The notes beneath the pieces are model-generated. The model made no database searches. It worked only from the letters and a program-made list of their open reading frames with translations, and had not been told where the DNA came from. Below are positions 12,052-57,796 of a stretch of 64,000 nt of DNA, piece after piece. Numbering within the stretch: the first letter of the stretch is position 1; each line of letters begins with the position of its first letter. Source of the stretch: an uncultured Candidatus Saccharibacteria bacterium (GTDB lineage: Bacteria; Patescibacteriota; JABMPQ01; JAQVVF01); assembly GCA_964574655.1 (NCBI GenBank), contig CAZNOH010000001.1, forward strand, positions 471,020 through 535,019, in the 5' to 3' direction. The position numbers and the translations under genes are program-made.

Positions 12052-13149
12052 ATGAAACATGATAATTTAAAAATTTATTTTTTTCCTGATGGTCAAGAAG
12101 CTTACGATCCTTCAAGCAGATATCGCTGTTTTAATATTTATCGAGAATTTGTTAAAAATAATGTTGATTGTGTTTTAGTCGAATCGCCTTTTGGTTTTAG
12201 TTTCGATTTTTATAGTTTTTTCAGAAAATTGTTTACAATTTTTAGAATTACTCTGAAACGACATTTTTGTTTGGTCAAGACAGTGTTAAATCTTGATAAG
12301 AAAAAGAATAATTATCTTTTTCTTCAGCGTGGTTTGAATGTTGGCACTGTTAGTTTAGTTTTATTTTCGAGATTTTTTTATAAATTTAAAGTTATCTTTG
12401 ATTTAGATGATGCAATTTTTTATCTCGATTTTTTAAAAGGCAGAGTAGACAAAATGTTAAAATTTTGTGACATTGTAGTTGTTGGTAGTCATTATTTGCA
12501 AGAATATGCAATAAAATTGAATAAAAATGTTTATCTAATTCCTACATCTTTAGATCTGGCTGGCAGATATTCTAAACAAAAACTTTTTGATGATTTTGAT
12601 GATAAACTTGTTAAAATTGGCTGGATTGGCAGTTATTATAATTTAAAATATCTTAATGTTTTAGTTGAATCATTAAATAATTTAGCTAAAAAGTATTCTT
12701 TAGAAATTATTATAATCGGTCCTAAGCAAAAACCAAAATTAGAATTTTCTAATTTAATTAAGATAAACTATATTATTTGGAATGATAAAACTGAAATTGA
12801 TGATTTATTGAAGATCGATATTGGCGTAATGCCATTATTTGATTCTAATGTTGAACGTGGCAAATGCGCATTTAAAGCAATACAATACATGGCTTTAGGA
12901 ATCCCAACCGTAGCAAGTTCTGTTGGAGAGAATAATTATCTAATTCAAGATGGACAAAATGGTTTTTTGGCATCAAATTCAAAGGAATGGGAAGAAAAAA
13001 TTGAAAAATTGATTTTAGATGCGAACTTAAGAAATAAGTTCTCTATTGAAGCAAAAAAAAGAATAATTGATAATTATTCTTTAGATAAAAATGCTTTGAA
13101 ATTATTGGAAATAATTGAAAATAATTTATCTTTTAAAAGGGTTTCTTAA
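12052..13149 (+). CDS. glycosyltransferase group 1 (GT4-like)
   Basis: AIQYMALGIPTVASSVGENNYLIQDGQNGFL C-terminal GT-B motif. Confidence 0.75.
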   Translation: MKHDNLKIYFFPDGQEAYDPSSRYRCFNIYREFVKNNVDCVLVESPFGFSFDFYSFFRKLFTIFRITLKRHFCLVKTVLNLDKKKNNYLFLQRGLNVGTVSLVLFSRFFYKFKVIFDLDDAIFYLDFLKGRVDKMLKFCDIVVVGSHYLQEYAIKLNKNVYLIPTSLDLAGRYSKQKLFDDFDDKLVKIGWIGSYYNLKYLNVLVESLNNLAKKYSLEIIIIGPKQKPKLEFSNLIKINYIIWNDKTEIDDLLKIDIGVMPLFDSNVERGKCAFKAIQYMALGIPTVASSVGENNYLIQDGQNGFLASNSKEWEEKIEKLILDANLRNKFSIEAKKRIIDNYSLDKNALKLLEIIENNLSFKRVS

Positions 13150-14127
13150 AGCTTTTGGACTTGTTCTCAATTGATATGGCAACAGTCTATGCGGACTGTT
13201 TTTTAATAGTTCTTGATCAGAAATTTTCCGATTTTTGAATAATGATTGCTGTTTTTTGTAGTTTTTAAAAGCCTTAATCATTCCATATAAACCAGCTGGT
13301 GCGGAAAAATCTAAGACTAGCAAATCTAGAGGAAGAATCAACAATTTGTAAAATAGATATTTTGTAATTGATTTTGGCAATGTTTTTTTATCTAGATTCT
13401 TTAATAAAGTTTTTAGATAGTCCTTTTCAAAGATATATCTACGTCTATATAGTTCTTTGAAAGATATTTTTTTAGAATCTTTGGCAATTTTATAATGGTA
13501 GACTATAGATTTTGGTACATAGAAATTTTTATAACCACAGAGTCTAATTCGCCAGGATAAATCAACATCATCACAAAAGAACTTGTATTTTTCATCAAAT
13601 TGTCCAGCTTCATAAAATGCTTTTTTTGAAACTAGCCAAGAAGTAATACCAAAATGTACTTCTCGTGATTCATTATTATCATCTAAACAATTTGCAAATT
13701 GCGGAGAAAAAAAACCGTTTCTGTCTATTATTCCGCCTCTCACAAATGAAGATTTGGTGCCTGTATCAATAATCTGACTAGTGCAAAGTCCTGCATTTTG
13801 CTGTGAAGTAATTGTCGAGACTAATTCTAGAAGCCAATTTTTATCAACTTTTGTATCGTTATCCAAAAAAAGAAAATATTCACCTTGAGCATATTTTGCA
13901 CCCTTGTTAAGAGCTTTTGAATAACCGAGATTGGAATCGCAAACAACAAGCTTAACTTTTGAAAAATTTTTTGTTATAAATTCTACACTGTCATCTGTAG
14001 AATTATTATCTATTAAAATTACCTCAAAGTTCTGATAAACATTTTTGTATATCGATGGCAAGCATTTTTCTAAAAATTTTTCGCCATTAAAATTCGGAAT
14101 TAAAATTGATACTTTAGGATATTGCAT
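13126..14127 (-). CDS. glycosyltransferase family 2
   Basis: VSILIPNFNGEKFLEKCLPSIYKNVYQNFEVILIDNNSTDDS. The DxD region follows. Confidence 0.8.
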   Translation of the reverse strand: MQYPKVSILIPNFNGEKFLEKCLPSIYKNVYQNFEVILIDNNSTDDSVEFITKNFSKVKLVVCDSNLGYSKALNKGAKYAQGEYFLFLDNDTKVDKNWLLELVSTITSQQNAGLCTSQIIDTGTKSSFVRGGIIDRNGFFSPQFANCLDDNNESREVHFGITSWLVSKKAFYEAGQFDEKYKFFCDDVDLSWRIRLCGYKNFYVPKSIVYHYKIAKDSKKISFKELYRRRYIFEKDYLKTLLKNLDKKTLPKSITKYLFYKLLILPLDLLVLDFSAPAGLYGMIKAFKNYKKQQSLFKNRKISDQELLKNSPHRLLPYQLRTSPKALRNPFKR

Positions 14128-15319
14128 TTTTGTAAATGTTTTCTAAGGCTAAAAGATGTTTTTCAATTGTATAATTATTGATCAAATCTTGATATGCATT
14201 ATTCGTCAGTTTTTGTCTTAATTCTTTATCTTTTATCAACAATTCAATCTTTTCTTTCAAATCATTACTATTGCCTACTTTGAAATATAAACCATTTTGA
14301 TTGTTTTTTATTAACTCCTTCATTCCTCCTATTTCGCTAACTATCAAGGCTGTTTTATTCTTAAATCCTTCATAAATTGTAACTGGTGAATTTTCATACC
14401 AAATTGATGGCACAATAGCTATATCTGCTTTTTGCCATAATTCTTGTTTTTCTTTTCCAGAAATGAAACCATAAAATTTAATTTTCTTATCGTAGCTGAA
14501 ATTGTGTTGCAATTTTTTAAATAGAGGACCATCTCCTGCAATATGCAAAATGACATTTTTATTTTTTAGCTTTGTAAATGCTTCAAGTAAAATATTAATG
14601 CCCTTATGTGTCACTAACTGTCCGAAATAGACAATATTAATATAATTATCCTGAATTTTTTCAGCTAAGTCTAGATTAATGCCAAGTGGCAAGCAAATAT
14701 TTTTTGATTTTTTGAAAAAACCAAGCTGGGTGTGTTTATCGAGAGTGAATTGTGAAGGCGCTAGCACAATTTTTGCAGATTGCGAAAATTTTCTTTTAGA
14801 TTTATAAAAAAAAATTTCGAGCGAATTAAATTTTGAAATTATTTTGTTGTTTCTAAAAAGCATTGCCCATGGACTTAAGAATTGATAGTCGTGTAAAGTA
14901 TGTACTTGTGGAATATTTTGACTTTTTATCGCTGAAAAAATTGATGTAGAAAATCCTGTAACATTATGAGTATGGACTAAATCTGGTTTTTCTTTTTTCA
15001 GAATTTCTTTTATCTGTAAATATGAATGAATATTCCACAAATCAAAAAAATGCCATAAAGGCTTTAAATAAATAGGCTTTTTGTCGGCATCTTTGGAATG
15101 ATAAATATTCAGTGGATAAAAACGGTATATTTTGAGTTTATTATTTATAATTTCTGATTTAGCTTTGAGATCGCTAATGTTTTTAAATGGTTTTGTGGTA
15201 ATCAGAATGACCTGATTGTCAGTTTGCTTTGTTATATATTCAACAATTTTTTCAACATAAATTTCAGCGCCACCTAGCACATATGGTTCATAAAGATTGG
15301 AAATGATAGCAATTTTCAT
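14114..15319 (-). CDS. glycosyltransferase family 4
   Basis: N-terminal MKIAIISNLYEPYVLGGAEIYV and C-terminal GT-B domain. Confidence 0.8.
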   Translation of the reverse strand: MKIAIISNLYEPYVLGGAEIYVEKIVEYITKQTDNQVILITTKPFKNISDLKAKSEIINNKLKIYRFYPLNIYHSKDADKKPIYLKPLWHFFDLWNIHSYLQIKEILKKEKPDLVHTHNVTGFSTSIFSAIKSQNIPQVHTLHDYQFLSPWAMLFRNNKIISKFNSLEIFFYKSKRKFSQSAKIVLAPSQFTLDKHTQLGFFKKSKNICLPLGINLDLAEKIQDNYINIVYFGQLVTHKGINILLEAFTKLKNKNVILHIAGDGPLFKKLQHNFSYDKKIKFYGFISGKEKQELWQKADIAIVPSIWYENSPVTIYEGFKNKTALIVSEIGGMKELIKNNQNGLYFKVGNSNDLKEKIELLIKDKELRQKLTNNAYQDLINNYTIEKHLLALENIYKNAIS

Positions 15320-15321
15320 TA

Positions 15322-16857
15322 TTAGAGCTTATATTGGTCAATTTGGTAGATCTTTATTATTATAGAGTCTTTTTTGTATGTGTCAACCTTTGTTAAGAAA
15401 TCCGCACTATCTAGGTAGTGGTCGAACTTAAAGTCGCACTGAATTGGTATCCAACCTAAAGGTTGGTTGCGATAATAAATGAAATCGATATTGTTTTCTT
15501 TATAAAATTTTTTAGAACTATCAGCATTTGGATGATATAGAACACTATCATTGCATTCGGTACCAATAAAATTATCTTGAGATTGATAGAATAAAAATAC
15601 GAATGGGCCTGGAATATCGCTAAGACCTTTTAAAGTTGGACTTAATAAAATGTTTTTTTGTCCGGGAAATTTATCGTTTAGGTTCATGATAGCTTTATAA
15701 TCCAAATATTTCATGTCAGGAACATAATCTAAATTATTAGCAATGGTTTTAGGAATATAAATAAAAACTGATATTAATATAAAAAGGCTTAGAATAATTT
15801 TTCTATACCTATTTTGGGTTAAAATAAAGGAGAAAAATGAACAATAAATAACTAAAACTAAAGTTAAATCGCGAGAAAATCTTTCAGTTTCAATTCCGTA
15901 CTTCGTTCTTGAGCCAAAGAGCAAGAATAAAAATGCAACTATTAATATAATTGCGGCTATTCTTTTTTCTGGATTTTTATAATATAAATATATTGCTGGA
16001 ATTGAAAATAAGAAAATCAGCCATAAAAATTTGTTTGTATGGCCTATAAATTGGTCAAAAGATTTTGGACCGATTATCGGCACGCCGATTATTGACTGAT
16101 TTTTGTCTAAAGAAATATTTTGATTGCTAATATTTTTGTAAAAAATAGGAGCAAAGTATGAAGTAATAATCTGATATGGATTAATCAAAGCTAATATTGT
16201 AAAAATTAGTATCAGAATTAATGCTTTTTTCTTGATTTCTTTACCTTTGATAAATATTAAAATTCCTATCAAAGAAATAATTATGATAACTGTCGGATAT
16301 AAAAATCCAACGGTATGTAGAATTCCATTGTTAAAATAAAAGATTATGCAAACTAAAAGACAAGAAATTTTATTTTCTTTGAGATATTTATACAGATACA
16401 AAAATATTAAAGGCATAAAGAAAAAAACTGCCAAAACATTCACGACTGTAGCATCTCGCAAATACCATGCAGGATGATAAGAAATTAAGGCCATTAGAAA
16501 TACGGCCAAAAGTGCTGATTTTTCATTAATAAATTTTCGAACTAAGAGGTATAGACTAAGTAAAACAAGACAAGAAATGAACGGGACAATAATGATGAAT
16601 AGTTGGACAATACTTATGCCAGTAACAAAGTGCAACGCGCTAAGAACAATATGAAATGACGTTGGATAATTAATCCCATTGTTATTTCCTTGATCGATAA
16701 TCTGTTGAGTCATCCAAAGATGGCTAGTTGCATCACCACCGCGAGGGTAAATTATTTCGTTGCTAATAATTAAGGGTAAATATTGGATTAGAGCAACGAA
16801 AAAGATGATACAAATTAGGACTATTAAATTTAAATTTTGTTTTATAAATGATTTCAT
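15322..16857 (-). CDS. polytopic membrane protein, putative GT-C-type glycosyltransferase or glycan polymerase
   Basis: 511 aa, more than 10 TM helices, and an acidic first-loop motif IYPRGGDATSHLWMTQQ like GT-C enzymes. ATGA-coupled to the flanking glycosyltransferases. Confidence 0.55.
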   Translation of the reverse strand: MKSFIKQNLNLIVLICIIFFVALIQYLPLIISNEIIYPRGGDATSHLWMTQQIIDQGNNNGINYPTSFHIVLSALHFVTGISIVQLFIIIVPFISCLVLLSLYLLVRKFINEKSALLAVFLMALISYHPAWYLRDATVVNVLAVFFFMPLIFLYLYKYLKENKISCLLVCIIFYFNNGILHTVGFLYPTVIIIISLIGILIFIKGKEIKKKALILILIFTILALINPYQIITSYFAPIFYKNISNQNISLDKNQSIIGVPIIGPKSFDQFIGHTNKFLWLIFLFSIPAIYLYYKNPEKRIAAIILIVAFLFLLFGSRTKYGIETERFSRDLTLVLVIYCSFFSFILTQNRYRKIILSLFILISVFIYIPKTIANNLDYVPDMKYLDYKAIMNLNDKFPGQKNILLSPTLKGLSDIPGPFVFLFYQSQDNFIGTECNDSVLYHPNADSSKKFYKENNIDFIYYRNQPLGWIPIQCDFKFDHYLDSADFLTKVDTYKKDSIIIKIYQIDQYKL

Positions 16858-17963
16858 AATTGACGATATAGAGCTACTACTTTTTGTGTAATCTTTTTTA
16901 TACTAAATTGTTGTGCTGTTTTTATTGTATTAGTTATTAATTCTTCTTTATATTTTTTATTGCTTAAAATCTTTATAATACTTTCAGCTAAGAGTTGTGA
17001 ATTTCTTGGCTCGATAACAATACCTGAATTATTATCTTTAATTTCTTTTGCCATACCAGCAATTTTAGTGGTAATTACTGGCGTGCCACATGCCAAGGCT
17101 TCAACCAAAACAATGCCGAAACCTTCTTGTTCTTTATCAATTGATGGCAAAATAAATATTTCTGATTTATTGTAATATTCCACAAGCTTGTTATCTGGAA
17201 TAAATCCAAGAAATTCAACATTCTTTTCAATGCTTAATTGTTTTACTTTGTTTTTATAATAATCCAAAAGCTTGCCTCTACCACCAATATTTAGTTTTAT
17301 ATCTGGAATTTTGTTTTTGACAATTTTTATTGCATCTAGTAAATAATCTAAACCTTTATATTTGTGATATTCATCAAGAATACTGAGAAAAAATAAAGAA
17401 TTCTTTTGTTTAGGAATATTTATTTTCTTAAATCTATTAGTATCTATGCCAACAGGAATGTAAACAACTTTAGAGGCATATCTTTTTAGATGTGGCGATG
17501 TTTTGAGGTAATCTGGACCAATAATGATGATTCTATCTGCTAGGCTTAAAGTAATTCTTAAAAAAGTTGCATTATATATTTTGGAAATAGTATTACCTAT
17601 CCCCTGCCCAATTATATCATTACAATAAGAAACAACTACTTTTTTTCTTCGTAATTTACCAATAACCGCTGACCAGTCGGCGCTCCACGGAGTTGGTAGA
17701 TAAGTATGGACTAAATCATATTTTTCTTTTAGTAATCTGAATGGCAATGATAAGGTAATATTTGTGTTAGCAATTTTTAAAAATGATCTTAGTCTTTTTA
17801 TTTTTATGCCTTTATATTCTTTAATGTCTGATTTCGGCTCATCAGCACAAATAACTTCAACTTTGTTGCCTTGTCTTGCTAATTCTTGAGAAAGATCAAG
17901 AGCGTATTTCTCAACTCCACCTGTTGCTGGATAAAATCTAATTGGAGTTTGAAGCATTTTCAT
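16854..17963 (-). CDS. glycosyltransferase family 4
   Basis: EGFGIVLVEALACGTPVITTKIAGM motif. Confidence 0.8.
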   Translation of the reverse strand: MKMLQTPIRFYPATGGVEKYALDLSQELARQGNKVEVICADEPKSDIKEYKGIKIKRLRSFLKIANTNITLSLPFRLLKEKYDLVHTYLPTPWSADWSAVIGKLRRKKVVVSYCNDIIGQGIGNTISKIYNATFLRITLSLADRIIIIGPDYLKTSPHLKRYASKVVYIPVGIDTNRFKKINIPKQKNSLFFLSILDEYHKYKGLDYLLDAIKIVKNKIPDIKLNIGGRGKLLDYYKNKVKQLSIEKNVEFLGFIPDNKLVEYYNKSEIFILPSIDKEQEGFGIVLVEALACGTPVITTKIAGMAKEIKDNNSGIVIEPRNSQLLAESIIKILSNKKYKEELITNTIKTAQQFSIKKITQKVVALYRQL

Positions 17964-18014
17964 AAATAATACTAGATTAATAAGTAGCGTAACTAAATTT
18001 ACGCTACCAATAAT

Positions 18015-18548
18015 TTAATATACTGTTATAAAGAAACCTTGACCTTGTAAGGTATGAATATATGCAGAGTTACCTGTTATTGATTTAATATATGTATTTC
18101 CGGAATACATAGTAATGCCATAAGGTGTTATTTGAATATACTTATTCGAAACATCAGATCCAAAATTTATTGTAAATTCTCCTGTTGAATAATTTATCGC
18201 GGTTATTTGTTGACTAGATAGCTTATTAAATGATTTGATTACTCTTCCATCGCTAGCTATTTCTGCGCTTGCTTTTATGAGTCCATCTGATTCATATACT
18301 TGTGTACCTTTTAAAATGCCATTAATTTTGAGATCATCATTAATCACAACTGGCTTATTTTTGACTGGATTTCTAATACTGCCCTTTAAGTTAAGTTTTC
18401 CATTATTGCTATCTGTTCCAACGGTTAGAACTTTTTGAATTAGACCATCACTAATAGTCCAAATTGATGCTGCACTTGCGAAAGCGGTTGATAATAGCAA
18501 CACGCCTCCTAAAACAAGCGACAGAATCAAAACTTTTTTGTTCTTCAT
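18015..18548 (-). CDS. secreted or signal-anchored surface protein, paralog of 56946..57704
   Basis: N-terminal MKNKKVLILSLVLGGVLLLSTAFASAAS signal, then SIWTISDGLIQKVLTVGTDSNNGKLNLKGSIRNPVKNKPV matching the N-terminus of the 56946 gene residue for residue. Shared C-terminal GFFITVY. Confidence 0.7.
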   Translation of the reverse strand: MKNKKVLILSLVLGGVLLLSTAFASAASIWTISDGLIQKVLTVGTDSNNGKLNLKGSIRNPVKNKPVVINDDLKINGILKGTQVYESDGLIKASAEIASDGRVIKSFNKLSSQQITAINYSTGEFTINFGSDVSNKYIQITPYGITMYSGNTYIKSITGNSAYIHTLQGQGFFITVY

Positions 18549-18559
18549 TTTGTTTTATA

Positions 18560-19687
18560 TTATTTATTATAAATATTTTGATAATATTTTTCTAAATCTA
18601 AAATTATATTTTGCCAATCATATTTTTTGGCTTCAGTTATGGCTTGCTTTTTAAATTTTGGATAACTATTTTTATCTCGCAAAAATTTAATTATTTTAGC
18701 TGCTAGATCAAATTCATCAAAATTAGCAATAAAACCATTGTAATTATCTTTGATTAAATCTTTGGCAGCATTTTCTTGATGATTTATTGCAATAACTGGC
18801 ACTCCGCATGCATTGGCTTCACAAAGAGTAATTCCAAAACCTTCGCGCGTGGAAGGAAGAACGAATAGCTTAGCTGATTTTAAATAGCTGAATAAGTCTT
18901 GTTTGTTCTCTAAGAAATTCTTAAAACTGATATTTTTATTAAGTTGATATCTGTTAACCAGTTCTTGCAGCTTGTCTTTTTCTGGACCCTCACCGATTAC
19001 TAGACAGCGAATATTGATAATTTCTTTTTGAACTAGTTTAATTGCCTTGATTAAAAGATCAATATTTTTTTCTTTAATAAATCTGCCTGCAAAAATAATA
19101 TCGTATTTTTCTATTTGACTATTTATTTTAGTAATATCGTCATATTCGATGCCTACTGGCAAAACCTTGATGTTTGGTTTATTTATTCTTTGCTTTGTCA
19201 ACTCTGAAATAGAAATTATGTTTGGCGATAATTTAAGTACTAATTTTTCTATTATACGGCCAATAAAGCCAAGAGATCCTAGATATTTGTTCCAAGATTC
19301 TCCCCAAAATTCAAACCAAGTAACAACTAATGGCACTTTTTTAAATTTTGAATATAGCCAAACAGGAAAAACTGAAAAATATGGGAATGCGGCGCAATCT
19401 ATTACATCAAATTTTTCTTTGAATAACGGTCTAATTAATTTAAATGCAAAATAAATTGGCTGGATAAAATTTCTTCTGCCTTCTTTTGAATAAAGTTTTA
19501 AAGCTTTGCAAACACCATGAAGATAAACACCATTTTGTTTAATAATATTATTCCCCTGCCAAAACTTCATGCCGAATAAGTGAACTTCGTGTTTATTCTT
19601 TAATCTTTGAGCAATTTCAAAATAACGTTTTTCTCCCCCGCCTTTTACATATGGATATATGCAGTCGTAAATTAAAGCTATTTTCAT
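18560..19687 (-). CDS. glycosyltransferase family 4
   Basis: EGFGITLCEANACGVPVIAINHQ motif. Confidence 0.8.
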   Translation of the reverse strand: MKIALIYDCIYPYVKGGGEKRYFEIAQRLKNKHEVHLFGMKFWQGNNIIKQNGVYLHGVCKALKLYSKEGRRNFIQPIYFAFKLIRPLFKEKFDVIDCAAFPYFSVFPVWLYSKFKKVPLVVTWFEFWGESWNKYLGSLGFIGRIIEKLVLKLSPNIISISELTKQRINKPNIKVLPVGIEYDDITKINSQIEKYDIIFAGRFIKEKNIDLLIKAIKLVQKEIINIRCLVIGEGPEKDKLQELVNRYQLNKNISFKNFLENKQDLFSYLKSAKLFVLPSTREGFGITLCEANACGVPVIAINHQENAAKDLIKDNYNGFIANFDEFDLAAKIIKFLRDKNSYPKFKKQAITEAKKYDWQNIILDLEKYYQNIYNK

Positions 19688-19768
19688 ATCGTAAATTTAC
19701 ATGAATTAACCACAAATTTCGCTAGCCTTTGTGCTATTTGTAATAAATTTGTGTAAATTCGAGACAGA

Positions 19769-20941
19769 TTAGTCTTCATTTTTCGTATGAATATTTAGAA
19801 TACTTAAGAAGAAAGCGGAGAAAATAGTTTGGATGCCGATGACGATTAATGTTAACGAGGCTAGTGTTTTCCTGATCTCAAATAAATTGCCATATTGCGC
19901 TTCTTTCCATTTCCAAAAAACAAATCCTGCCAATATTGTACCAGCTATAATAAAAAGTAATCCAAAATATAATGTTTTTTCTAAAGAAAAATATTTGTTA
20001 AAATAGCGAACAGTTTTACCCTCTTTTTCTAATCCCTTATTATATGCATAAAGTTTACCGAATATACCGAAAGAAAAAACTTGATAGCCTAGTATTGCTA
20101 AAAATGAGCCCAAAAACATTGGATGCAGATCTAAAGTTGCCGTTCCTATCTGGATTGGGCCAAACATCATTCTGATTGAAAATAATAAGCCACTAACAAA
20201 TAGGACTAAACCTGGAATAAGAAATAAATAGTTTGGGCTATATAATAGCATAAAGCGTAGATGACGCCATCCATCAGAGAAAGTATTGAGTTTTGATTCC
20301 CCTTTTCTCACGCCATAGTAAATAGGAATTTCAGAAATTTTTAGATTTTCTTTTCCAGCTTTGATAATCATTTCAGAAGCATATTCCATGCCAGTAGTTT
20401 GCAGATTAAGCTTGTTGTAGGCGTCACGTGAAAATGCTCTCATACCACAATGGGCGTCTCTGACGCCAACTTTGAACATTGTTCTCAAAATTCCGGAAAG
20501 TATTGGATTGCCAACATAGCGATGCAAAAATGGCATGGCTTCTTTTTGCATTGGATAAGCAAAGCGATTGCCAATCACAAAATCTTGCCCTTCCTGAATT
20601 GGCCTGACAAAAGAATCAATTTTAGTAAAATCATATGTATCGTCAGAATCGCCGATAATGATGATCTTGCCTTTTGCTTCAGCAATTCCTTTGTGGTAGG
20701 CATTGCCATATCCTTTGCTTGGTTGAAAAACAACTTTGGCGCCTAATTTTTTAGCAATATTTATTGAATTGTCAGTTGAACCATTGTCAGCAACGATGAT
20801 TTCGGCATTAAGATTTAATTTTTTTATGGCTTGTTTGGCTTTTGCAATACAAGAACCGATTGTCTTTTCTTCATTCAAACAAGGCATAACAATAGATAAT
20901 TGAGGATATTTTTTTTGTTGAACAGGGGGGTATACAGCCAT
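19769..20941 (-). CDS. GT2 polyprenol-phosphate glycosyltransferase (DPM1/GtrB/ArnC-like) with C-terminal TM helices
   Basis: LSIVMPCLNEEKTIGSCI ... ADNGSTDNS ... IIIGDSDDT GT2 core followed by about 4 C-terminal hydrophobic helices. Confidence 0.75.
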   Translation of the reverse strand: MAVYPPVQQKKYPQLSIVMPCLNEEKTIGSCIAKAKQAIKKLNLNAEIIVADNGSTDNSINIAKKLGAKVVFQPSKGYGNAYHKGIAEAKGKIIIIGDSDDTYDFTKIDSFVRPIQEGQDFVIGNRFAYPMQKEAMPFLHRYVGNPILSGILRTMFKVGVRDAHCGMRAFSRDAYNKLNLQTTGMEYASEMIIKAGKENLKISEIPIYYGVRKGESKLNTFSDGWRHLRFMLLYSPNYLFLIPGLVLFVSGLLFSIRMMFGPIQIGTATLDLHPMFLGSFLAILGYQVFSFGIFGKLYAYNKGLEKEGKTVRYFNKYFSLEKTLYFGLLFIIAGTILAGFVFWKWKEAQYGNLFEIRKTLASLTLIVIGIQTIFSAFFLSILNIHTKNED

Positions 20942-20954
20942 TGTGGATAGTTAT

Positions 20955-23900
20955 TTATTTAACATTTAATTTAAAGTTATCAAAGGATAAATCGATATTA
21001 TCATCATTACCATCTTCAAGAGATATCTCGATGCTTTGTATATAAACATTATTGGAATCTCTTTGTTGAAAGATTAGATTATTATTTTGCCAAAATTCTA
21101 CTTTGTCTTTGTCTTTATTTATTTTTAGTTCATTCCATTGATTTAGATTAAATTTAGATGGATATCTGCTTTGATTATTTTGAGAATCTCTAAATACGAT
21201 CATTGATTTCGGATTAGTAATAGTAATTTTGTTTACAATATTATTATTGCTGTCGATCAGGCTTATGTTTAACTTTGGTCCATTTTGCCATTTAGATGTT
21301 TTGGTCATTATCGTAAAATCTACTTCATTGAAACAACCGTAAATGTCCTTGGAAATTTTTCCTTGTTGTGATAAAAATTTTAAGGATTGTTTTCCGTAAA
21401 AAGAATCTTCTTGATTGAATAATAATTCCCATGGACGATTAATTAATTTGTCTCTAGAATAATTTTCATCCTCAAAGCTATCAAAGAATTCTTTACTAAA
21501 ATTATATTTTTCAAAAATTTGTCTAAAATTGTCTGAACAATAATCTCGATTTTCAAAATCAGTTTTATTAATTGGCAAATCATTACGTTCAACTTTAAAA
21601 TTTGAGAGTCGGATACCATTATTATTATTGATAATAATTTCATTATTATTATCATCGTAAATTTTAAGGAGTATCTCGTTTTCTTGTGGTTTTAAATTGG
21701 GTAAATCAATAGTAATATTTTGTTCTTGGCCAACTTTCATAATTGGAATGTCAATCTCTTTAAGCTCTGCTTCATCTAACCAATCTTCATTTAAAAACAA
21801 TTTAATTGTCCTTGATCTATTGTCAAAATTCTCGACTTTAAAAGATAAAATAGCATTGACATTGCTTTCTTCTTGATTGTTAATTGTTATTCTTGCATTA
21901 TTATAAGCAACATTAAAGAAACGATCAGTTTGTTTTTCCCATTCATTTATCCCCCAATTTCCTGTGAAGCCTAATAGTAGCTGTTTACTAACTTCTTTAG
22001 GCTTAATTTGTAGAACAACAATTTGATTATCATTAAAAGGAACATTTTCTACGTCAAAATTATTAATAATGAATTTAGTTAGATTAGAAAAATCCTTTAC
22101 ATTTAGCCAATCTTTGTTAATTGCTAAGTACCTTATATTATATCTATTTAATGTATCTTGTCCAGATGAATAATAATAATCTTTATCAAATATATTAAGC
22201 GTTTGCCTTAAATCAAGATTATTAAAAAATAATTTATCCAAAACTGGAATGTTAGTTATTTGAGCATTTTCTTCATCTATCAAGTCTTTTATAAAAATAA
22301 ATTGGGAATTATCTTTTAGACTGTCAATTTCAGCTGGCAACATCAGAATTTTAGAATCTGAGTCTAAACTGTTGTAAAAATTAGGAAGAAAATTATCATC
22401 GTAGATTTTTTTATATTTTATGGCATAAAATAAAACTGATTCTGTTTTATTGCCCTCAGCAATATTAATATTCTGTCCTTCAAAATCTTTGACCTTAAAT
22501 GAGATGGTTGATTGACCAGGTCGAATATTTTTTAAATCGATAAGATATGCTTTAGGCTGATTGACAATAGTTAAATCAGTGATTTTTGTATTATTTAAGT
22601 AAATCTCAAGTTTTCTTGGTTCGTTATTTGCTTTTGCATTAAGATAAAGCTCAATATTTTTATTATCATTAGATGGATTATCTAAAACTAAAGTTGAATT
22701 ATTAAGCATCCAATGCTCTTGCAAAATCTGTTTCCTTTTTTCATTGATTAAGATACTTTGATCAAAATCATCCTGTCCCCAATTCTGTCCTTGATAAATC
22801 GTAACTTGATCGTTTTTTTGTCCGGTAATTTCATATACCAGTTCATCCCCTATTGTTTGCCAATTGCCTTGAGTATTTTCTTTGAGAAACTTGATCGTTT
22901 TCTGAAAACTAAATAAATTTTTAAAATTTTTCTCTTCCCAATTATTTTCACTGACTTGAAATTTTTGCGGTATTGTTTTTTGAATAAATTGGCTGTCAAA
23001 AACAATATATTTTATTTTTTCATTAGCTAAATAATCAGTAAAAGTTTTTGTGTAATCTGGTTGAATAAAATTGGCATAATTTATTTCTCTGCCTTGTGGC
23101 AAATTATCAATAAACGCAGAAACCGGAGTTTTTTTGTTAGATTGATTTAAATTATCAAAGAATAATTTTTGATTAGAAATAATTTTTGATTTATTTTCAT
23201 AATTTTGGTAAAGAAAATTTCCTGGTTCCTGCAATGGGACATTCAGGTAGGCTATGTTTTCATCTGATTTAAGATTGGCGTAAAATGAAGACGTTGTTGG
23301 TCCTGGTTGCCAGATTAACCATGAGCTGAACAGAATTAAAAGAAAGAATGCGCCCAAAATTAAAGTTTTTATTTTTGGGGAATAATTAATTTTTTCTAGA
23401 AAGAATTTGAAGCCAAAGGAAATGAAAATTATGAAGAATAATAAACTGAAGATTAAGAAACTTTTTGGGTCGATTGTCTGATTGAAATATGGAAAGAAAC
23501 GATATAGAAAAAGATAAGGTAAGCTAATTTTTGGCGAAATTATGTTTTGTTGGAAGATTAAATATGGACCAAAAGAAAAGATGATAAATATTATTGATAA
23601 AATAAACGAAAAAATGATATATTTGTTTTTTTGATATGACCTAAATGCAAAGACAATAAAAATTAATAACAGAAATATAAAAATAACGCTTAGGCAAATT
23701 ACTGGCGAAAACTTGAACAAAGCTGATTGGGTAAAGTCTAGAAGCTTAGAAAGGTCTAGAGAATTGCTGATAAATAGTTGACCGTCTAAGTCAAAAGACT
23801 GAATTTGCCTTAACGGCCAATAACATTTTAGGCTAAAAACGATGATTAACAGCAAAATAAAGCTTATTAATTTGGTCAATTCTTTAGATTGATGGATGAA

Positions 23901-24500
23901 ATCTTTAAATTTTGGATAAAGAACAAAAATTATTACTATAAATGATAATAATAAAGCCGCAATGCTAAAGAATAAATTGTAACTGCAGATAAATAAGTAG
24001 AATAAACATGCCAGCAGGCCGAATTTAATACTTGATTTTTCTAAAGACTTTAGCAAGAAATAAATAAAAAATAAAACTAAAATTAACGGATAACAAACAA
24101 TTGACGCCAAGCCGAATAAAATTCCGCCGAAAATTGCGCTAAGCTTACTTTCTTGATGCATCAGATAGTCAATCAGCAAATAACCGCCAAAAGCGCCAAA
24201 TGGAAAAAAGAGAATTAAAAATAAATTGAAGCCCAATGGTTCGGAAAAGATTAGATGAAATAAATAACCAATTGCTGAGGGACTTAAAATATCGTAAACA
24301 GCAGTAATTATAGTTTGGCTGTTTAAATTTTGAAATACTTTAATGACTTCAAAGTATTTGGCGTTGAAAGAAAAAACATCTAGATTTAGCGCTAAATTTT
24401 GGTTAATTAAAAATATGGCCGGCAAAATGATAATTATGCCTAAGCTAAAATATAGAATAAAAATTGATAATTTTAGATGTTTTTTAACAAAATTAATCAT
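20955..24500 (-). CDS. giant integral membrane protein (about 1180 aa): N-terminal polytopic GT-C-like domain plus an about 800-aa extracytoplasmic N/Q/K/D-rich domain
   Basis: The ORF-track start at 24560 adds an unlikely MAFWANLYFICANIKIKKKP. The internal MINFVKKHLKLS at 24500 is the more plausible start. About 12 TM segments in the first 420 aa, then a long soluble region. Confidence 0.6.
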   Translation of the reverse strand: MINFVKKHLKLSIFILYFSLGIIIILPAIFLINQNLALNLDVFSFNAKYFEVIKVFQNLNSQTIITAVYDILSPSAIGYLFHLIFSEPLGFNLFLILFFPFGAFGGYLLIDYLMHQESKLSAIFGGILFGLASIVCYPLILVLFFIYFLLKSLEKSSIKFGLLACLFYLFICSYNLFFSIAALLLSFIVIIFVLYPKFKDFIHQSKELTKLISFILLLIIVFSLKCYWPLRQIQSFDLDGQLFISNSLDLSKLLDFTQSALFKFSPVICLSVIFIFLLLIFIVFAFRSYQKNKYIIFSFILSIIFIIFSFGPYLIFQQNIISPKISLPYLFLYRFFPYFNQTIDPKSFLIFSLLFFIIFISFGFKFFLEKINYSPKIKTLILGAFFLLILFSSWLIWQPGPTTSSFYANLKSDENIAYLNVPLQEPGNFLYQNYENKSKIISNQKLFFDNLNQSNKKTPVSAFIDNLPQGREINYANFIQPDYTKTFTDYLANEKIKYIVFDSQFIQKTIPQKFQVSENNWEEKNFKNLFSFQKTIKFLKENTQGNWQTIGDELVYEITGQKNDQVTIYQGQNWGQDDFDQSILINEKRKQILQEHWMLNNSTLVLDNPSNDNKNIELYLNAKANNEPRKLEIYLNNTKITDLTIVNQPKAYLIDLKNIRPGQSTISFKVKDFEGQNINIAEGNKTESVLFYAIKYKKIYDDNFLPNFYNSLDSDSKILMLPAEIDSLKDNSQFIFIKDLIDEENAQITNIPVLDKLFFNNLDLRQTLNIFDKDYYYSSGQDTLNRYNIRYLAINKDWLNVKDFSNLTKFIINNFDVENVPFNDNQIVVLQIKPKEVSKQLLLGFTGNWGINEWEKQTDRFFNVAYNNARITINNQEESNVNAILSFKVENFDNRSRTIKLFLNEDWLDEAELKEIDIPIMKVGQEQNITIDLPNLKPQENEILLKIYDDNNNEIIINNNNGIRLSNFKVERNDLPINKTDFENRDYCSDNFRQIFEKYNFSKEFFDSFEDENYSRDKLINRPWELLFNQEDSFYGKQSLKFLSQQGKISKDIYGCFNEVDFTIMTKTSKWQNGPKLNISLIDSNNNIVNKITITNPKSMIVFRDSQNNQSRYPSKFNLNQWNELKINKDKDKVEFWQNNNLIFQQRDSNNVYIQSIEISLEDGNDDNIDLSFDNFKLNVK

Positions 24501-25104
24501 AGGTTTCTTTTTTATTTTTATGTTGGCGCAGATAAAGTATAAATTGGCCCAAAACGCCAATAACTAGAAAAAGATAAGCTAAATTTGCTGATCGTTCAGC
24601 AATCGGTTCGTATTTAAAGAATAAGAAAAATGGACAAAGAATCAAAAAAAACAGAGCAAGAATTATAAAAGCGCGTGGTTCTTTAAATTTGAGAAGTATA
24701 TTTTTAATTGCCAAACCAATTGGGCCATGATTTAAAGCAAATGTCATTATGCTTAAAAATAAAACTGCGTAAGTCAAGCGATATGGAAAAAGTTGAAATT
24801 CTTGGATGTCTGGTTGAGCAATAACTGTTTCCATCAAACCGATAAGATCAATGCTTAGAAAAAAAACGACTAGGCTAAGAATAATTTGCTCATTTTTCAA
24901 ACCGTTATAACTAGTTACGCGATTAAGAATATAAAGAAACAGAATAGATGATAACAAAAATAAATAGTTAATATTTTGCCAAATCAAGAAATGTGGAGAT
25001 ATTACTTGAGCAATAAAAGTAATCATAAAAATGACTAAAAAAATCCAGGAAAATGAGTGTATTGTTTTGTATTTGATGTTTAATGACGTGCTACTAAATT
25101 TCAT
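24493..25104 (-). CDS. polytopic membrane protein (hypothetical)
   Basis: 203 aa, 5-6 hydrophobic helices, between two GT-C-like genes. Confidence 0.45.
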   Translation of the reverse strand: MKFSSTSLNIKYKTIHSFSWIFLVIFMITFIAQVISPHFLIWQNINYLFLLSSILFLYILNRVTSYNGLKNEQIILSLVVFFLSIDLIGLMETVIAQPDIQEFQLFPYRLTYAVLFLSIMTFALNHGPIGLAIKNILLKFKEPRAFIILALFFLILCPFFLFFKYEPIAERSANLAYLFLVIGVLGQFILYLRQHKNKKETYD

Positions 25105-25165
25105 TTGACAAAAGGATAAGTTAATTTTATTGTAGCAAAAAATAGATTATTTAAAAGACTAATTT

Positions 25166-26902
25166 TTACTTTATTTTATAAATATAAGTTTGACCAAAAC
25201 GCTGAATTAATTCCAAGTTTGGATTAATGTTCTTTGGATTAATACTTCTGCTCAATATTTTTTCTGGCGGAATCTCTGTTCCCCTCCAAAATGGTTTATT
25301 ATACTGGTCTTTATGCACAAAGACGTAATTGGCGCCAAGTTTTTTCAAAGTAGTTACGCTATTTGGATTTGTAATATCGTAAATTTGTAATCGAATCTGT
25401 TCCTTGCCTGTTGTATCTGGTTCTGGCTGGCCGTTAATCATTGGCTGATGATGATATCTTTGCCAAAATAAATATGTTGGAGTTGGGCTATAATTTGTAT
25501 TAACGTAAGGATATTCAGCGATAACAGTATTTCTGGGTTGATTTTTAAGCCAGATATATTCTGCAGGAGGCTGACTAACATCAGTTGTTTTGAATGATGG
25601 CAATAAATCAAGAATAATTATAATAAAAATTATAGTAAAAGCATGAATTATTAGGCGCTTAATTGGAATATATTTTAATAATTTGGATGTTTTAAAATAT
25701 TCAAATAAATATTTTAGACCAACACCAGCCAAAACTGCTATTGAGAGACTGACTAAAACAAATAGTCTAGAATAAACTCTGAATTGAGGTAGAATCTTAT
25801 AGATCCAGTGCGATGGAGATATGGGTGGAGAAAATGAGAAAATAGTTGCTGTGATAGCGGTAACAATGAATAAGATCATTATAAAATCTAACTGTTGATT
25901 TTCAGTTTTTTCTTTACGCCATTTATAAATTGCATAAATTGCTAATAAGATTGCTGGAATACTCAAATATGCTAGATATTCGAAATCTGGAATCCCTTGG
26001 CCATGATAAAATATTTTGTTATAAAAATCACCAAATAAATAATTATCTTGCGAAGGGACAAGAAGATATTTTATACTTTGTTGGCCCCATCGAGCTAAAT
26101 CTTCAACTGGACGTGAAAAACTTAACATTCCGCTATTGGCTTCTTTTTTTTGACTTAAAATTATAGGGGTTAGATAACTGCCGATTAGGATAAAAACTGT
26201 TAAGCAAAAAACTGCAGCAAGTTTTAGTTTTTGTTTTGTAATATGGCTTTTGATGACAAATAATCTAACTGATAAAAAGATTATTAAAAAGATACTTAAG
26301 AATAAACCGTAATAATAATCAGTAAAGAAATTTAAGGCAAAAAATATTCCCGAAAAGACAGCATAGCGATATTTTTTTGTCTCGACTAACTTCAATATGG
26401 ACAATGCAAAAAAAGGAAACCATTCAATATTTGCTAAGGTTGTATGACCAGTTACTCGAATAAAATGATATGGTGAAAACGAAAAAATTAATGCCGAAAT
26501 AACACTCGCCCATCGATTTTTTGTTATGTAAAGAACCAGCAAATACATACCGATTGCTGACAAAGGAAAGCTAATCCAATTTATTATGTTGTAAACTGCT
26601 ATTTCATTTACAAAAATATTCAAGAACGATATGATGTGGTTCCAAATGTAGTAAACATTATTTTGCGCATTGCGTCCGTCTGGAAAATTAATTAAAGAAA
26701 AATTGTTTTGATCGAGATTATTTGTAGTACTATACTCTTGCCACCAAATAGAATAGATTCCTCCAAAATCATCCCCTCCTCCAGCTCCTGAAATTGTCGA
26801 GCTTGGGTGCAAAATTGCGGGATAGAACAAAACACTGATTGCAATAAAAAACAAAAAAATCCAGATTTCAGGTGTTTTCAAAATTTTAAATATTCTTGTC
26901 AT
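25166..26902 (-). CDS. polytopic membrane protein, putative GT-C-type (YfhO/ArnT-like) glycosyltransferase
   Basis: 578 aa, more than 10 TM segments, and a conserved acidic loop ISGAGGGDDFGGIYSIWWQE after TM1. Confidence 0.55.
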   Translation of the reverse strand: MTRIFKILKTPEIWIFLFFIAISVLFYPAILHPSSTISGAGGGDDFGGIYSIWWQEYSTTNNLDQNNFSLINFPDGRNAQNNVYYIWNHIISFLNIFVNEIAVYNIINWISFPLSAIGMYLLVLYITKNRWASVISALIFSFSPYHFIRVTGHTTLANIEWFPFFALSILKLVETKKYRYAVFSGIFFALNFFTDYYYGLFLSIFLIIFLSVRLFVIKSHITKQKLKLAAVFCLTVFILIGSYLTPIILSQKKEANSGMLSFSRPVEDLARWGQQSIKYLLVPSQDNYLFGDFYNKIFYHGQGIPDFEYLAYLSIPAILLAIYAIYKWRKEKTENQQLDFIMILFIVTAITATIFSFSPPISPSHWIYKILPQFRVYSRLFVLVSLSIAVLAGVGLKYLFEYFKTSKLLKYIPIKRLIIHAFTIIFIIIILDLLPSFKTTDVSQPPAEYIWLKNQPRNTVIAEYPYVNTNYSPTPTYLFWQRYHHQPMINGQPEPDTTGKEQIRLQIYDITNPNSVTTLKKLGANYVFVHKDQYNKPFWRGTEIPPEKILSRSINPKNINPNLELIQRFGQTYIYKIK

Positions 26903-29261: not shown

Positions 29262-29262
29262 A

Positions 29263-30174
29263 TTAACATTTATGCTGTATAACTAAAGATAGGCCTGCAT
29301 AAGTACCCTTAATATAGCTATATATGCCATCAAGTCTTTTATTGCGCAGAGATAATTGACTGTAATAGATAAAATAAACTGGCAAAAATAATAGAAATAT
29401 TCCAAAATATTTAGAATGTCTTTTCATAAAAATAATTCTATTGCGGGCAATATGGAATGTTTGTCCAACTAGCTTATCAGCCTTGCTGAGTTCTTTATGA
29501 TAAACAATTGATTTCGGAGCATACATAACTTTATAGCCATTTTTTTTGGCGCGAAAACAAAAATCAGTATCTTCATAATTATGAAAATAAATACTATCAA
29601 AGCTCTTTAAAATATTTAGTAAAGTCCTTTTAACTAGAATAATTGCTGTTGGCGCGACTTGGATTTCTCTATTTTTTTCATATTGTCCAACATCTTCTCC
29701 GTTATCAAAATGGATCTGACCAGTAACTAAATTAATTGATGTTCCAGCTGACCAAATCACTTTTGGATCGCTAAAGACAAGAACTTTGCTTGTGACAATA
29801 CCGATTTCTTGATCTAATTCACTCACTTTGACTAATTCTGATAGAGCGTTTTTTTTCAAAAAAATATCGTGGTCGGAAAATAAAACATAGCTGCTATTTG
29901 GGTCGCAATATTTTATACCATAATTCCTGCCACCGGCTCCTCCCAAATTTTCTTTAGGTTTGACAAGCTTTATTTTATTATTATGCTGATATAGTTTATT
30001 TAATTTTTGCCAAAATTCTGGAAGAGGAGAATTATCAACAATAATTATTTCAAAATTTGGATAATCTTGATTTATAACAGAATCAACGACATTATAAATG
30101 TCTTGGTTATTGTAATTTGGAATGATTATTGATACTTTTGACGTTCCAGCTCTATCTATCATATTTTTAAACAA
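29263..30174 (-). CDS. glycosyltransferase family 2
   Basis: VSIIIPNYNNQDIYNVVDSVINQDYPNFEIIIVDNSP motif. Confidence 0.8.
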   Translation of the reverse strand: MFKNMIDRAGTSKVSIIIPNYNNQDIYNVVDSVINQDYPNFEIIIVDNSPLPEFWQKLNKLYQHNNKIKLVKPKENLGGAGGRNYGIKYCDPNSSYVLFSDHDIFLKKNALSELVKVSELDQEIGIVTSKVLVFSDPKVIWSAGTSINLVTGQIHFDNGEDVGQYEKNREIQVAPTAIILVKRTLLNILKSFDSIYFHNYEDTDFCFRAKKNGYKVMYAPKSIVYHKELSKADKLVGQTFHIARNRIIFMKRHSKYFGIFLLFLPVYFIYYSQLSLRNKRLDGIYSYIKGTYAGLSLVIQHKC

Positions 30175-56428: not shown

Positions 56429-56920
56429 ATGAAAACAAAAAAAGAAATTACAATTAATGATTTGGCCAAGTTACTTGAAAAGCTTGGCGAAAAAGTTGAA
56501 AAGTTATCTGTGAAAATGGATACAGGTTTTAAGAAAAATGACGTGCGATTTTTTAGTTTAGAGAGAAAGATGGAGACTGGTTTTAAAAACCAAGAAAAAA
56601 AGTTAGAAGAAAAATTCGACAAAAAAATTTCAGAGCTTGCGTTGATGGTTGCAAAAGGTTTTAAAGAAACTGCATCTAAAGAAGAAGCTGCTACAAAAAT
56701 AGATATAGAAAATTTAAATTTAAAGATTGATAATGTTGAAGAATCTTTGATAAATAAAATTGATTCTGCAAAAGGTGATGTAATTCTGATTATTAGAAAA
56801 TTAGATGAAAAGATAATTGTTTTAGTTGATTTTCTTAAGGGTCATCAAATTTTAAACGATGTTGAATACGAAAAGCTATGCAAAATAAAGGCTTTTCAAA
56901 CTATTGAGCTTAAGTCTTAA
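56429..56920 (+). CDS. K/E-rich coiled-coil protein (hypothetical)
   Basis: 163 aa, heptad-like LEKLGEKVEKLSVKMD..., with no TM or signal peptide. Confidence 0.5.
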   Translation: MKTKKEITINDLAKLLEKLGEKVEKLSVKMDTGFKKNDVRFFSLERKMETGFKNQEKKLEEKFDKKISELALMVAKGFKETASKEEAATKIDIENLNLKIDNVEESLINKIDSAKGDVILIIRKLDEKIIVLVDFLKGHQILNDVEYEKLCKIKAFQTIELKS

Positions 56921-57763: not shown

Positions 57764-57796
57764 TTGATGGACTTTTTGTAATTTGATTTCTTGTAT

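What the first reader, a model, noticed from the sequence alone, without database searches (positions are those of the whole stretch)
18015..18548. Paralogous surface-protein family: one copy embedded in the glycan locus, the other expanded with tail-fibre-like KLGTGAVTxD repeats (56946-57704)
The two proteins share an essentially collinear N-terminus (signal peptide LSLVLG..LL.TAFASA then S.WT.D....KV.TVGT.SN.G.L..KG.IRNPVK.K.V) and the C-terminal motif GF(F/Y)ITVY. The second copy has four tandem 10-11-aa repeats (KLGTGAVTADKLGTGAVTTDKLGTGAVSSAKIADDAVNADKLD). I recall, without certainty, that these resemble the 'IADGAVT..KIADGAV' repeats of phage tail-fibre and bacterial surface-fibre proteins. 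The first copy sits between glycosyltransferase genes on the same strand, so it is a prime candidate substrate (S-layer, fibre or adhesin subunit) for the locus.
Basis: seen in the sequence. Interest (0 to 1): 0.7.

Follow-up and report, generated by a model that had tools for sequence, protein, structure and literature searches.

The report
Phage-fibre-like surface protein paralogs
A tiny-genome Patescibacteria bacterium encodes two related secreted proteins built like miniature phage tail fibres (anchor, stalk, knob); the stalk-less copy sits inside a sugar-polymer operon, but nothing shows it is that operon's substrate.

Summary
Window 18015-18548 (-) and 56946-57704 (+) encode true paralogs (BLASTP E=1e-35). 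The similarity is independently significant in the mature N-terminal stem (2e-18) and in the C-terminal module (2e-13). Both C-terminal modules model confidently as the same 8-stranded beta-sandwich knob, with the same structural neighbours: WSSV VP37 and phage tailspike/tail-fibre tips, more weakly TNF/BclA knobs.

Copy 2 carries five exact 10-residue repeats. These match phage tail-fibre families by sequence (PHROG 8.8e-11, 36 phage records, PDB 9EG4).

The proteins belong to an unannotated, mostly Patescibacteria family: signal peptide/anchor, conserved stem, variable stalk, fast-evolving knob.

Copy 2 is the widespread form. It has a conserved coiled-coil partner gene and lies in a surface-lipoprotein island. 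Copy 1 is a stalk-less derivative seen in only two sibling genomes. In both it sits between the same two GT4 genes and is followed by a conserved hairpin. An orthologous GT4-GT4 pair elsewhere lacks it, and other family members lie outside glycan operons.

The "tail-fibre-like paralogs" part is therefore supported. "Substrate of the locus" remains an untested guess, and the "expansion" polarity is probably reversed. Interest is moderate; I class it as a new variant of a known kind.

The parts
18015..18548 (-). Copy 1: 177-aa secreted stalk-less fibre-knob protein (P0001). Residues 1-26 are the signal peptide/anchor (18471-18548), 27-88 the conserved stem (18285-18470), 89-177 the C-terminal knob (18018-18284).
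17983..18008 (-). Stable hairpin immediately after the copy-1 stop codon, inside the operon, followed by the conserved sequence UYAUUAAUCUAGUAUU. Probably a partial terminator or mRNA-stabilising element.
   Evidence: dG -15.5 kcal/mol, z=-4.0. The same element in the sibling genome has dG -19.2, z=-5.7, with compensatory stem changes GCGU/ACGC vs GCACU/AGUGC. Not repeated elsewhere in the window; no Rfam family.
13126..30174 (-). Twelve-gene same-strand glycan operon that contains copy 1, in order: GT2, GT-C (AftD-like), 8-TM protein, 4-TM protein, 1201-aa polytopic protein, GT2, GT4, COPY 1, GT4, 511-aa polytopic EpsG/DUF6541-like protein, GT4, GT2.
   Evidence: Pfam; hydropathy; the same gene order in the sibling genome locus L001
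18560..19687 (-). Upstream flanking GT4 glycosyltransferase; its stop codon is 11 nt before the copy-1 start codon.
   Evidence: Pfam Glycos_transf_1 1.3e-41; orthologs in L011-L015 have no family member adjacent
16854..17963 (-). Downstream flanking GT4 glycosyltransferase.
   Evidence: Pfam Glycos_transf_1 1.8e-44; in L013 its ortholog directly abuts the upstream GT4 ortholog
56946..57704 (+). Copy 2: 252-aa secreted fibre-knob protein (P0003). Residues 1-26 are the signal peptide/anchor (56946-57023), 27-94 the stem (57024-57227), 95-144 the five 10-aa stalk repeats (57228-57377), about 150-252 the knob (57393-57701).
57228..57377 (+). Stalk: five tandem 10-residue K-L-G-T-G-A-V-T-x-D repeats, related by sequence to phage tail-fibre/virion-fibre stalk repeats. 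Copy number varies among orthologs.
   Evidence: TRF 30-nt period; phrog_892 8.8e-11; PDB 9eg4_H 2.9e-5; 36 phage records; ortholog alignment shows 3-5 units
57730..57764 (+). Canonical intrinsic terminator (7-bp GC-containing stem plus T-run) after copy 2.
   Evidence: Read directly from the sequence
56429..56920 (+). 163-aa K/E-rich coiled-coil-like ORF without a signal peptide, 25 nt upstream of copy 2. It is a conserved partner gene.
   Evidence: 56-63% identical orthologs directly upstream of the copy-2 orthologs in L004, L006 and L010; no Pfam hit
57837..60686 (-). Convergent neighbour of copy 2: 949-aa lipoprotein with Cys-rich MopE-type repeats and a LamG domain. Recurrent neighbour of the family.
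   Evidence: Pfam; the same neighbour in L004, L005, L006, L008 and L036

Best explanation
Both genes encode members of an unannotated, mainly Patescibacteria family of small Sec-exported envelope fibres laid out like a phage tail fibre. The layout has four parts: (1) an N-terminal hydrophobic signal peptide or signal-anchor, unusually well conserved; (2) a conserved ~60-residue beta-rich stem, the attachment end; (3) a variable number of 10-residue K-L-G-T-G-A-V-T-x-D stalk repeats homologous to those of phage tail and virion fibres; and (4) a C-terminal 8-stranded beta-sandwich knob that ends exactly at the C-terminus and is the fastest-evolving, presumably distal ligand-binding part.

By analogy with its homologs and structural neighbours, the protein probably forms homotrimers projecting from the cell surface (inferred, not shown).

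Copy 2 (five repeats) is the ancestral, widespread form. It is expressed from a two-gene unit with a coiled-coil partner and its own terminator, within a surface-lipoprotein island at the edge of the glycan island.

Copy 1 is a lineage-specific duplicate that has lost the stalk, so its knob would sit close to the membrane. It is co-transcribed with GT2/GT4/GT-C/polymerase-like genes, and a conserved hairpin after its stop codon probably raises or segments its expression.

My preferred reading of the link to the operon is that the membrane-proximal knob binds or organises the glycan made by the operon, in a lectin-like anchor or ruler role, rather than being its dedicated substrate. That last step is inference only.
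Confidence: 0.6

Rival explanations
1. One reading: copy 1 is the protein substrate (glycoprotein fibre, adhesin or S-layer subunit) of the surrounding glycosylation locus, in the way bclA3 sits next to sgtA in C. difficile or S-layer genes sit next to slg clusters.
Against: No STT3/PMT/Wzy_C-type transferase was recognised. The roughly 43-kb island, with two Wzx flippases, GT-C enzymes and polymerase-like proteins, is far larger than needed for one 15-kDa protein. The orthologous GT4 pair in L013 works without the gene. Copy 1 lacks the Thr-rich stalk, which is the site glycosylated in BclA-type fibres. Other family members are not in GT operons.
Confidence: 0.2
2. There is no functional link. 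Copy 1 is a duplicated surface-fibre gene that landed in, and is tolerated within, a highly expressed envelope operon; its role (adhesion or host contact) is independent of the glycan.
For: The embedding is restricted to two sibling genomes, and the GT pair exists without it in L013. Copy 1 has its own promoter-like site (18594-18566) and its own downstream hairpin, which suggests a semi-autonomous expression unit. Glycan genes of this locus appear to move horizontally: the GT4 ortholog in L015 is on an archaeal-looking contig.
Against: The position, and the hairpin with its compensatory changes, have been retained while the protein diverged to 46% identity and the flanking GT4s to 43-62%. That argues for selection on the arrangement. 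The promoter-like match is not above the shuffle expectation in this AT-rich DNA.
Confidence: 0.15
3. The genes are remnants of a prophage or tailocin: genuine tail-fibre genes rather than cellular surface proteins.
For: PHROG tail-fibre hits, BFVD tail-fibre fold hits and tblastn hits to phage tail-fibre genes.
Against: All sequence-level phage similarity is confined to the stalk repeats; the knob has no phage sequence match. The phage-type hits lack both a signal peptide and the knob, whereas both window proteins carry Sec-type signal peptides. No phage structural genes flank either copy here or in nine related loci. Both positions are syntenic between genomes.
Confidence: 0.03

Closest known systems
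Phage tail fibres and virion fibres with decapeptide '(K/N)-(I/L)-x-x-G-A-V-T-x-x' stalk repeats (PHROG 892, 21412, 28766; tail fiber of cyanophage S-TIM5; host-specificity protein J of Vibrio phage SHOU24; PDB 9EG4 chain H of Legionella phage LME-1)
   Same: Copy 2's stalk repeats are homologous at sequence level. The overall order of conserved N-terminal attachment end, repetitive stalk and variable C-terminal tip is the same. The knob fold matches predicted phage fibre/spike tips and the C-terminal domains of solved tailspikes 5js4, 7eea and 4ru4.
   Different: The window proteins have a Sec signal peptide instead of a virion-attachment domain. They sit in stable cellular loci without phage genes. 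The knob is not detectable in phages by sequence. They are much shorter (177-252 aa). Copy 1 has no stalk at all.
BclA/BclA3 exosporium fibres of Bacillus and Clostridioides (collagen-like stalk plus C-terminal TNF/C1q-like trimeric knob; glycosylated; the GT gene sgtA lies adjacent to bclA3)
   Different: No collagen G-X-Y repeats and no sequence similarity. The fold match is weaker than to VP37 or tailspike tips. Export is Sec-dependent onto a vegetative cell rather than assembly onto a spore. Glycosylation has not been shown.
WSSV envelope protein VP37 (PDB 7DDA)
   Different: 8-10% sequence identity; a eukaryotic virus; no stalk repeats; homology cannot be claimed.
H-type and related small beta-sandwich lectins and CBMs (Helix pomatia agglutinin 2CCV, discoidin 2W94, CBM32)

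Membership tests
Phage tail-fibre proteins | Sequence-level similarity of the fibrous stalk to annotated tail fibres | tested here: met
   Copy 2 only: phrog_892 8.8e-11 and six more PHROGs; 36 phage records, all matched through residues ~62-170. Copy 1: no PHROG hit below E=0.4.
Phage tail-fibre proteins | Encoded within a phage/prophage structural module and lacking a secretion signal | tested here: not met
   Both proteins have Sec-type signal peptides (sequence). The phage-type hits lack them. Neighbours are GTs, lipoproteins or housekeeping genes in the window and nine related loci.
Phage tail-fibre proteins | Homotrimeric assembly | not testable with these tools
   Only monomer AF2 was available; stalk pLDDT <50.
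BclA-like collagen-stalk glycoprotein fibres | Collagen-like G-X-Y repeat stalk | tested here: not met
   The stalk is a 10-residue KLGTGAVTxD repeat with no G-X-Y periodicity.
BclA-like collagen-stalk glycoprotein fibres | C-terminal TNF/C1q-like jelly-roll knob | tested here: inconclusive
BclA-like collagen-stalk glycoprotein fibres | Protein is glycosylated by adjacent glycosyltransferase(s) | not testable with these tools
   Adjacency to GT4 genes is met for copy 1, but glycosylation itself needs mass spectrometry.
S-layer proteins | Large self-assembling lattice protein with a cell-wall anchoring module (SLH, CWB2 or similar) | tested here: not met
   Mature sizes are about 15 and 23 kDa; no Pfam or NCBIfam domain was found.
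Unnamed 'fibre-knob' family defined here (profiles A1/A2 and the C-terminal HMM) | N-terminal signal peptide plus a C-terminal ~100-aa module ending in F-x-[ILVM]-x-[VI]-[YF]-COOH | tested here: met
   Both window proteins score 4e-26 to 5e-29 against the C-terminal HMM. There are 71 representatives at E<=1e-3 in 1.84 billion proteins. Terminal motif tabulated.
Lipoproteins / LPXTG sortase substrates / type IV pilins (alternative anchoring classes) | Lipobox Cys; C-terminal LPXTG plus TM segment; or class III signal peptide | tested here: not met
   From the sequences: copy 1 has no Cys; the signal peptides end in F-A-S-A; the proteins end in ...ITVY; there is no G/FTLIE-type prepilin motif.

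The most novel reading that the evidence does not exclude
Patescibacteria, which are small-genome and often episymbiotic, may have domesticated a phage receptor-binding fibre (stalk repeats plus tip-like knob) as a Sec-exported cell-surface adhesin family. In one lineage a stalk-less duplicate may then have been recruited as an integral extracytoplasmic component of a cell-wall glycan assembly line, acting as a lectin-like anchor or ruler that couples a protein knob to the polymer made by the flanking GT4, GT-C and polymerase-like enzymes. That would be a new accessory class for polysaccharide biogenesis and a candidate host-attachment organelle.
Probability: 0.15. Interest if true: 0.65.

Novelty: new variant of a known kind. 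Interest (0 to 1): 0.4.

Why it matters
How ultra-small Patescibacteria build their envelope and attach to hosts or surfaces is largely unknown, and most of their surface proteins are unannotated. This family has no Pfam or NCBIfam model, yet it has a clear modular logic: conserved anchor end, length-variable phage-type stalk, fast-evolving knob. That makes it a concrete candidate for a surface fibre or adhesin.

The natural pair of a long copy and a stalk-less copy inside a glycan operon offers a built-in experiment on how fibre length and glycan synthesis are coupled. It is also another example of phage fibre modules shared between viruses and cells.

The result is not surprising in kind, because fibre-with-knob surface proteins and structural genes near GTs are both well known. 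The functional link to the glycan is unproven.

Tried and rejected
- Similarity limited to the signal peptide: rejected. The stem and the knob are each significant on their own.
- Prophage remnant: rejected on context and on the presence of signal peptides.
- Lipoprotein, LPXTG substrate or type IV pilin: rejected from the sequence.
- Third paralog in the window: none found.
- The search for homologous proteins with copy 1 found only itself and one ortholog. With a knob-only profile it gave one weak hit and was unproductive.
- Genome-contig scan with the family alignment: only 2 loci.
- The AFDB50 fold library was unavailable, so no annotated AFDB relatives could be sought.
- PDB sequence searches of the 511-aa and 1201-aa polytopic neighbours, looking for an oligosaccharyltransferase relationship: nothing.
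- Pfam across the island found no STT3, PMT or Wzy_C.
- Rfam and tRNA scans were empty.
- The conserved post-hairpin motif is not repeated elsewhere in the window.
- Promoter-like matches near copy 1 are not above background in this AT-rich DNA.
- The NJ tree did not settle whether the duplication is recent.
- Cluster look-ups gave only 'hypothetical protein' names.

Full report
**Observation**

The window has about 30% G+C. Its closest relatives in public data are MAGs labelled 'Patescibacteria group bacterium'. The two window proteins are on record from a 654-kb contig.

- Copy 1: 18015..18548 on the - strand, 177 aa.
- Copy 2: 56946..57704 on the + strand, 252 aa.

BLASTP aligns them end to end (E=1e-35, 32% identity) with a single 83-column gap where copy 2 has its repeats. 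Split by region, the mature N-terminal stem alone gives 55% identity and E=2e-18. The C-terminal ~100 residues alone give E=2e-13. An HMM scan of every window ORF finds exactly these two members.

**Anatomy**

Neither protein hits Pfam or NCBIfam. The only NCBIfam signal is a sub-threshold match of the N-termini to the mycoplasmal signal-anchor model TIGR02184.

AF2 models are confident only for the C-terminal modules. Copy 1 residues 89-177 have block pLDDT 76-91, with a dip to 59 around residues 141-150. Copy 2 residues 150-252 have pLDDT 84-93. Each module has eight strands in the same order.

- Phage AP22 fibre gp53 and R-pyocin fibre tips.
- Helix pomatia agglutinin and discoidin.
- More weakly, TNF-family ligands, BclA and PRD1 P5.

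The second refutation criterion (unrelated folds) is therefore also not met.

Against predicted viral structures, copy 2 gives 31 hits at E<=1e-3. Most named hits are tail fibres or tailspikes, and many align only the knob (100-115 columns, about 3 A).

**The stalk**

Copy 2 residues 95-144 are five exact 10-residue units (NLGTGVVTET, KLGTGAVTAD, KLGTGAVTTD, KLGTGAVSSA, KIADDAVNAD). TRF sees a 30-nt period at 57258-57353.

- phrog_892 'tail fiber' at 8.8e-11, plus further fibre and virion PHROGs.
- tblastn hits in 36 phage records, all through residues ~62-170, under genes annotated tail fiber, host specificity protein J or tail protein.
- A profile hit to PDB 9eg4 chain H. 9EG4 is the capsid model of Legionella phage LME-1, which is built from the major capsid protein and an outward-projecting decoration protein with a trimeric base (PMC12407071). 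Assigning chain H to the decoration protein is my inference.

The roughly 85 database proteins that match only the repeats have no signal peptide and no knob. The knob alone has no sequence match in 50,697 phage records. So the stalk is shared with phages by sequence, and the knob only by fold.

**The family**

An exhaustive profile search of 1.84 billion representatives finds 71 proteins at E<=1e-3. Nearly all have an N-terminal signal peptide, a variable middle (often with the same decapeptide repeats) and the knob placed exactly at the C-terminus, ending F-x-[ILVM]-x-[VI]-[YF].

Copy-2-type orthologs form 11 clusters at 49-72% identity. Copy-1-type proteins form only two clusters: the window protein and P0002 of a sibling MAG.

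Within the close family, conservation falls from the N-terminus to the C-terminus: signal peptide 0.66, stem 0.69, repeats 0.62, knob 0.41. For P0001 vs P0002 the signal peptide is 0.85 and the knob 0.37. That is the pattern of a conserved attachment end and a fast-evolving distal tip, as in phage fibres.

Repeat number varies among orthologs, from 3 to 5 units. Because the repeat-bearing form is widespread and the short form is rare, copy 1 is most simply a stalk-less derivative, not the baseline from which copy 2 'expanded'. P0002 still keeps a ~20-residue degenerate remnant of the stalk. The midpoint-rooted NJ tree puts the copy-1 clade outside the copy-2 types, so the age of the duplication is unresolved.

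**Context of copy 1**

Copy 1 is the eighth of twelve same-strand genes (13126-30174). In order they are: GT2, an AftD-like GT-C, two polytopic proteins, a 1201-aa polytopic protein, GT2, GT4, copy 1, GT4, a 511-aa polytopic EpsG/DUF6541-like protein, GT4, GT2.

This operon lies inside a ~43-kb glycan island (about 5-48.5 kb) with:
- two UDP-galactopyranose mutases;
- GDP-mannose dehydratase, epimerases and RmlD;
- two Wzx-type flippases;
- methyltransferases and a B12/radical-SAM enzyme.

No STT3, PMT or Wzy_C-type transferase was recognised.

The sibling genome has the same order around P0002.

Immediately after the copy-1 stop codon lies a stable hairpin (-15.5 kcal/mol, z=-4.0). It is conserved in the sibling genome (-19.2 kcal/mol, z=-5.7) with compensatory stem changes, and is followed by a nearly identical 16-nt tract. 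This suggests a retained expression element such as a partial terminator or stabiliser, as is common after abundant structural genes inside operons. That reading is an inference.

**Is the embedding general?**

No. The evidence:
- Orthologs of the upstream GT4 fetched from metagenomes (42-46% identity) have no family member nearby.
- In L013 the orthologs of both flanking GT4s directly abut, at 140-1264 and 1237-2373.
- Copy-2-type genes in five loci sit in a different conserved setting. They follow a coiled-coil ORF (56-63% identical orthologs in three relatives) and lie convergent to a Cys-rich MopE/LamG lipoprotein, among other lipoproteins, an S8 peptidase and an fn3 protein.
- Distant members sit among housekeeping genes (L035), next to another MopE/LamG protein (L036), among T9SS-type secreted proteins (L037) or before a GT2 (L038).
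- None of these contexts is phage-like.

**Mechanism**

Shown:
- Two paralogous, Sec-signal-bearing proteins with a shared stem and knob.
- A phage-type stalk in one of them.
- Conserved but different genomic settings for the two.
- A conserved hairpin after the embedded copy.

Inferred:
- Trimeric fibres anchored by the conserved N-terminal end, either through a retained signal-anchor or through the stem, with the variable knob distal.
- Copy 2 displays the knob on a short stalk, while copy 1 holds it close to the membrane, where the operon's extracytoplasmic GT-C and polymerase-like enzymes act.

For the copy-1/glycan link I rank three readings:
1. A lectin-like glycan-binding or organising role.
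2. Precedent exists: sgtA lies immediately upstream of bclA3 (PMC7157674).
3. No functional link.

None of the three is tested. The substrate model is weakened by four points. No protein oligosaccharyltransferase was recognised. The island has the scale and type of a polysaccharide locus. The GT pair exists without the gene in L013. Copy 1 also lacks the Thr-rich stalk.

**Comparison and novelty**

The proteins work like phage tail fibres and like BclA-type fibre-with-knob surface proteins. They fail membership of both families:
- Phage tail fibres: the window proteins have a signal peptide, a cellular context and no phage sequence match for the knob.
- BclA: there is no collagen repeat and only a weak fold match.

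The family has no curated model and its public records are 'hypothetical protein'. I class it as a new variant of a known kind.

Interest is moderate (0.4). It is a plausible Patescibacteria surface fibre or adhesin with an informative long/short paralog pair.

Noticed in passing
window 57837-60686 (-) and 60863-62146 (-): Two lipoproteins with Cys-rich MopE-type repeats, fused to a LamG domain (949 aa) or a C-type lectin domain (427 aa). The region reaches 49.5% G+C in a ~30% G+C genome. The 949-aa gene is a conserved convergent neighbour of copy-2 orthologs (about 50-65% identity in relatives), and a similar protein lies near a distant family member (L036).
   Followed up: partly
window 17983-18008 (-); L001 about 10577-10604: Hairpin directly after the copy-1 stop codon, conserved between two genomes with compensatory stem changes and a conserved 16-nt 3' tract. 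No Rfam family matches it and it is not repeated elsewhere in the window.
   Followed up: yes
proteins P0099-P0164: About 20 distant family members carry a conserved '[ILV]-Q-P-A' motif (e.g. DLQPAG, ILQPAE, VLQPAS) a few residues after the signal peptide. The window proteins have S-[IV]-W-T there instead. This may be a conserved processing or attachment motif of the wider family.
   Followed up: no
window 18471-18548 (-) and 56946-57023 (+): The signal peptides are unusually conserved (85% identity between P0001 and P0002, against 37% in the knob; invariant T-A-F-A-S). They weakly match the mycoplasmal signal-anchor model TIGR02184 (E=0.008). This raises the possibility that they are retained as membrane anchors or recognised by a dedicated system.
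   Followed up: partly
window 5009-6112 (+) and 30322-31410 (+): Two UDP-galactopyranose mutase (Glf) paralogs and two Wzx-type flippases (8624-10069, 46087-47370) within one ~43-kb island. This suggests two separate galactofuranose-containing glycan pathways.
   Followed up: no
window 1919-3157 (-) and 3298-4101 (-): An EF-Tu-like GTPase and a PAPS-reductase-family protein lie side by side, resembling the CysN/CysD sulfate adenylyltransferase pair, right next to the glycan island. This could indicate sulfated glycans.
   Followed up: no
window 40018-44108 (-): Three SAM methyltransferases plus a B12-binding radical-SAM enzyme sit in the middle of the glycan island. This suggests unusual sugar methylation or C-methylation.
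   Followed up: no
L015 3123-4984: A 44%-identical ortholog of the GT4 flanking copy 1 lies on a contig that also encodes an L15e-type (archaeal/eukaryotic) ribosomal protein. This suggests cross-domain transfer of these glycan genes.
   Followed up: no
window 56429-56920 (+): A K/E-rich coiled-coil-like 163-aa ORF without a signal peptide, 25 nt upstream of copy 2. It is conserved as the upstream partner in three relatives (there about 205 aa) and has a weak hit to phrog_6701 (E=1e-4). Its function is unknown.
   Followed up: partly
window 50899-51735 (+) and 51864-52697 (+): Tandem paralogous lipoproteins (both match the same orthologs in relatives at 32-51% identity) with no Pfam domain. 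They are part of the conserved surface-protein island that also holds an S8 peptidase and an fn3 protein.
   Followed up: no
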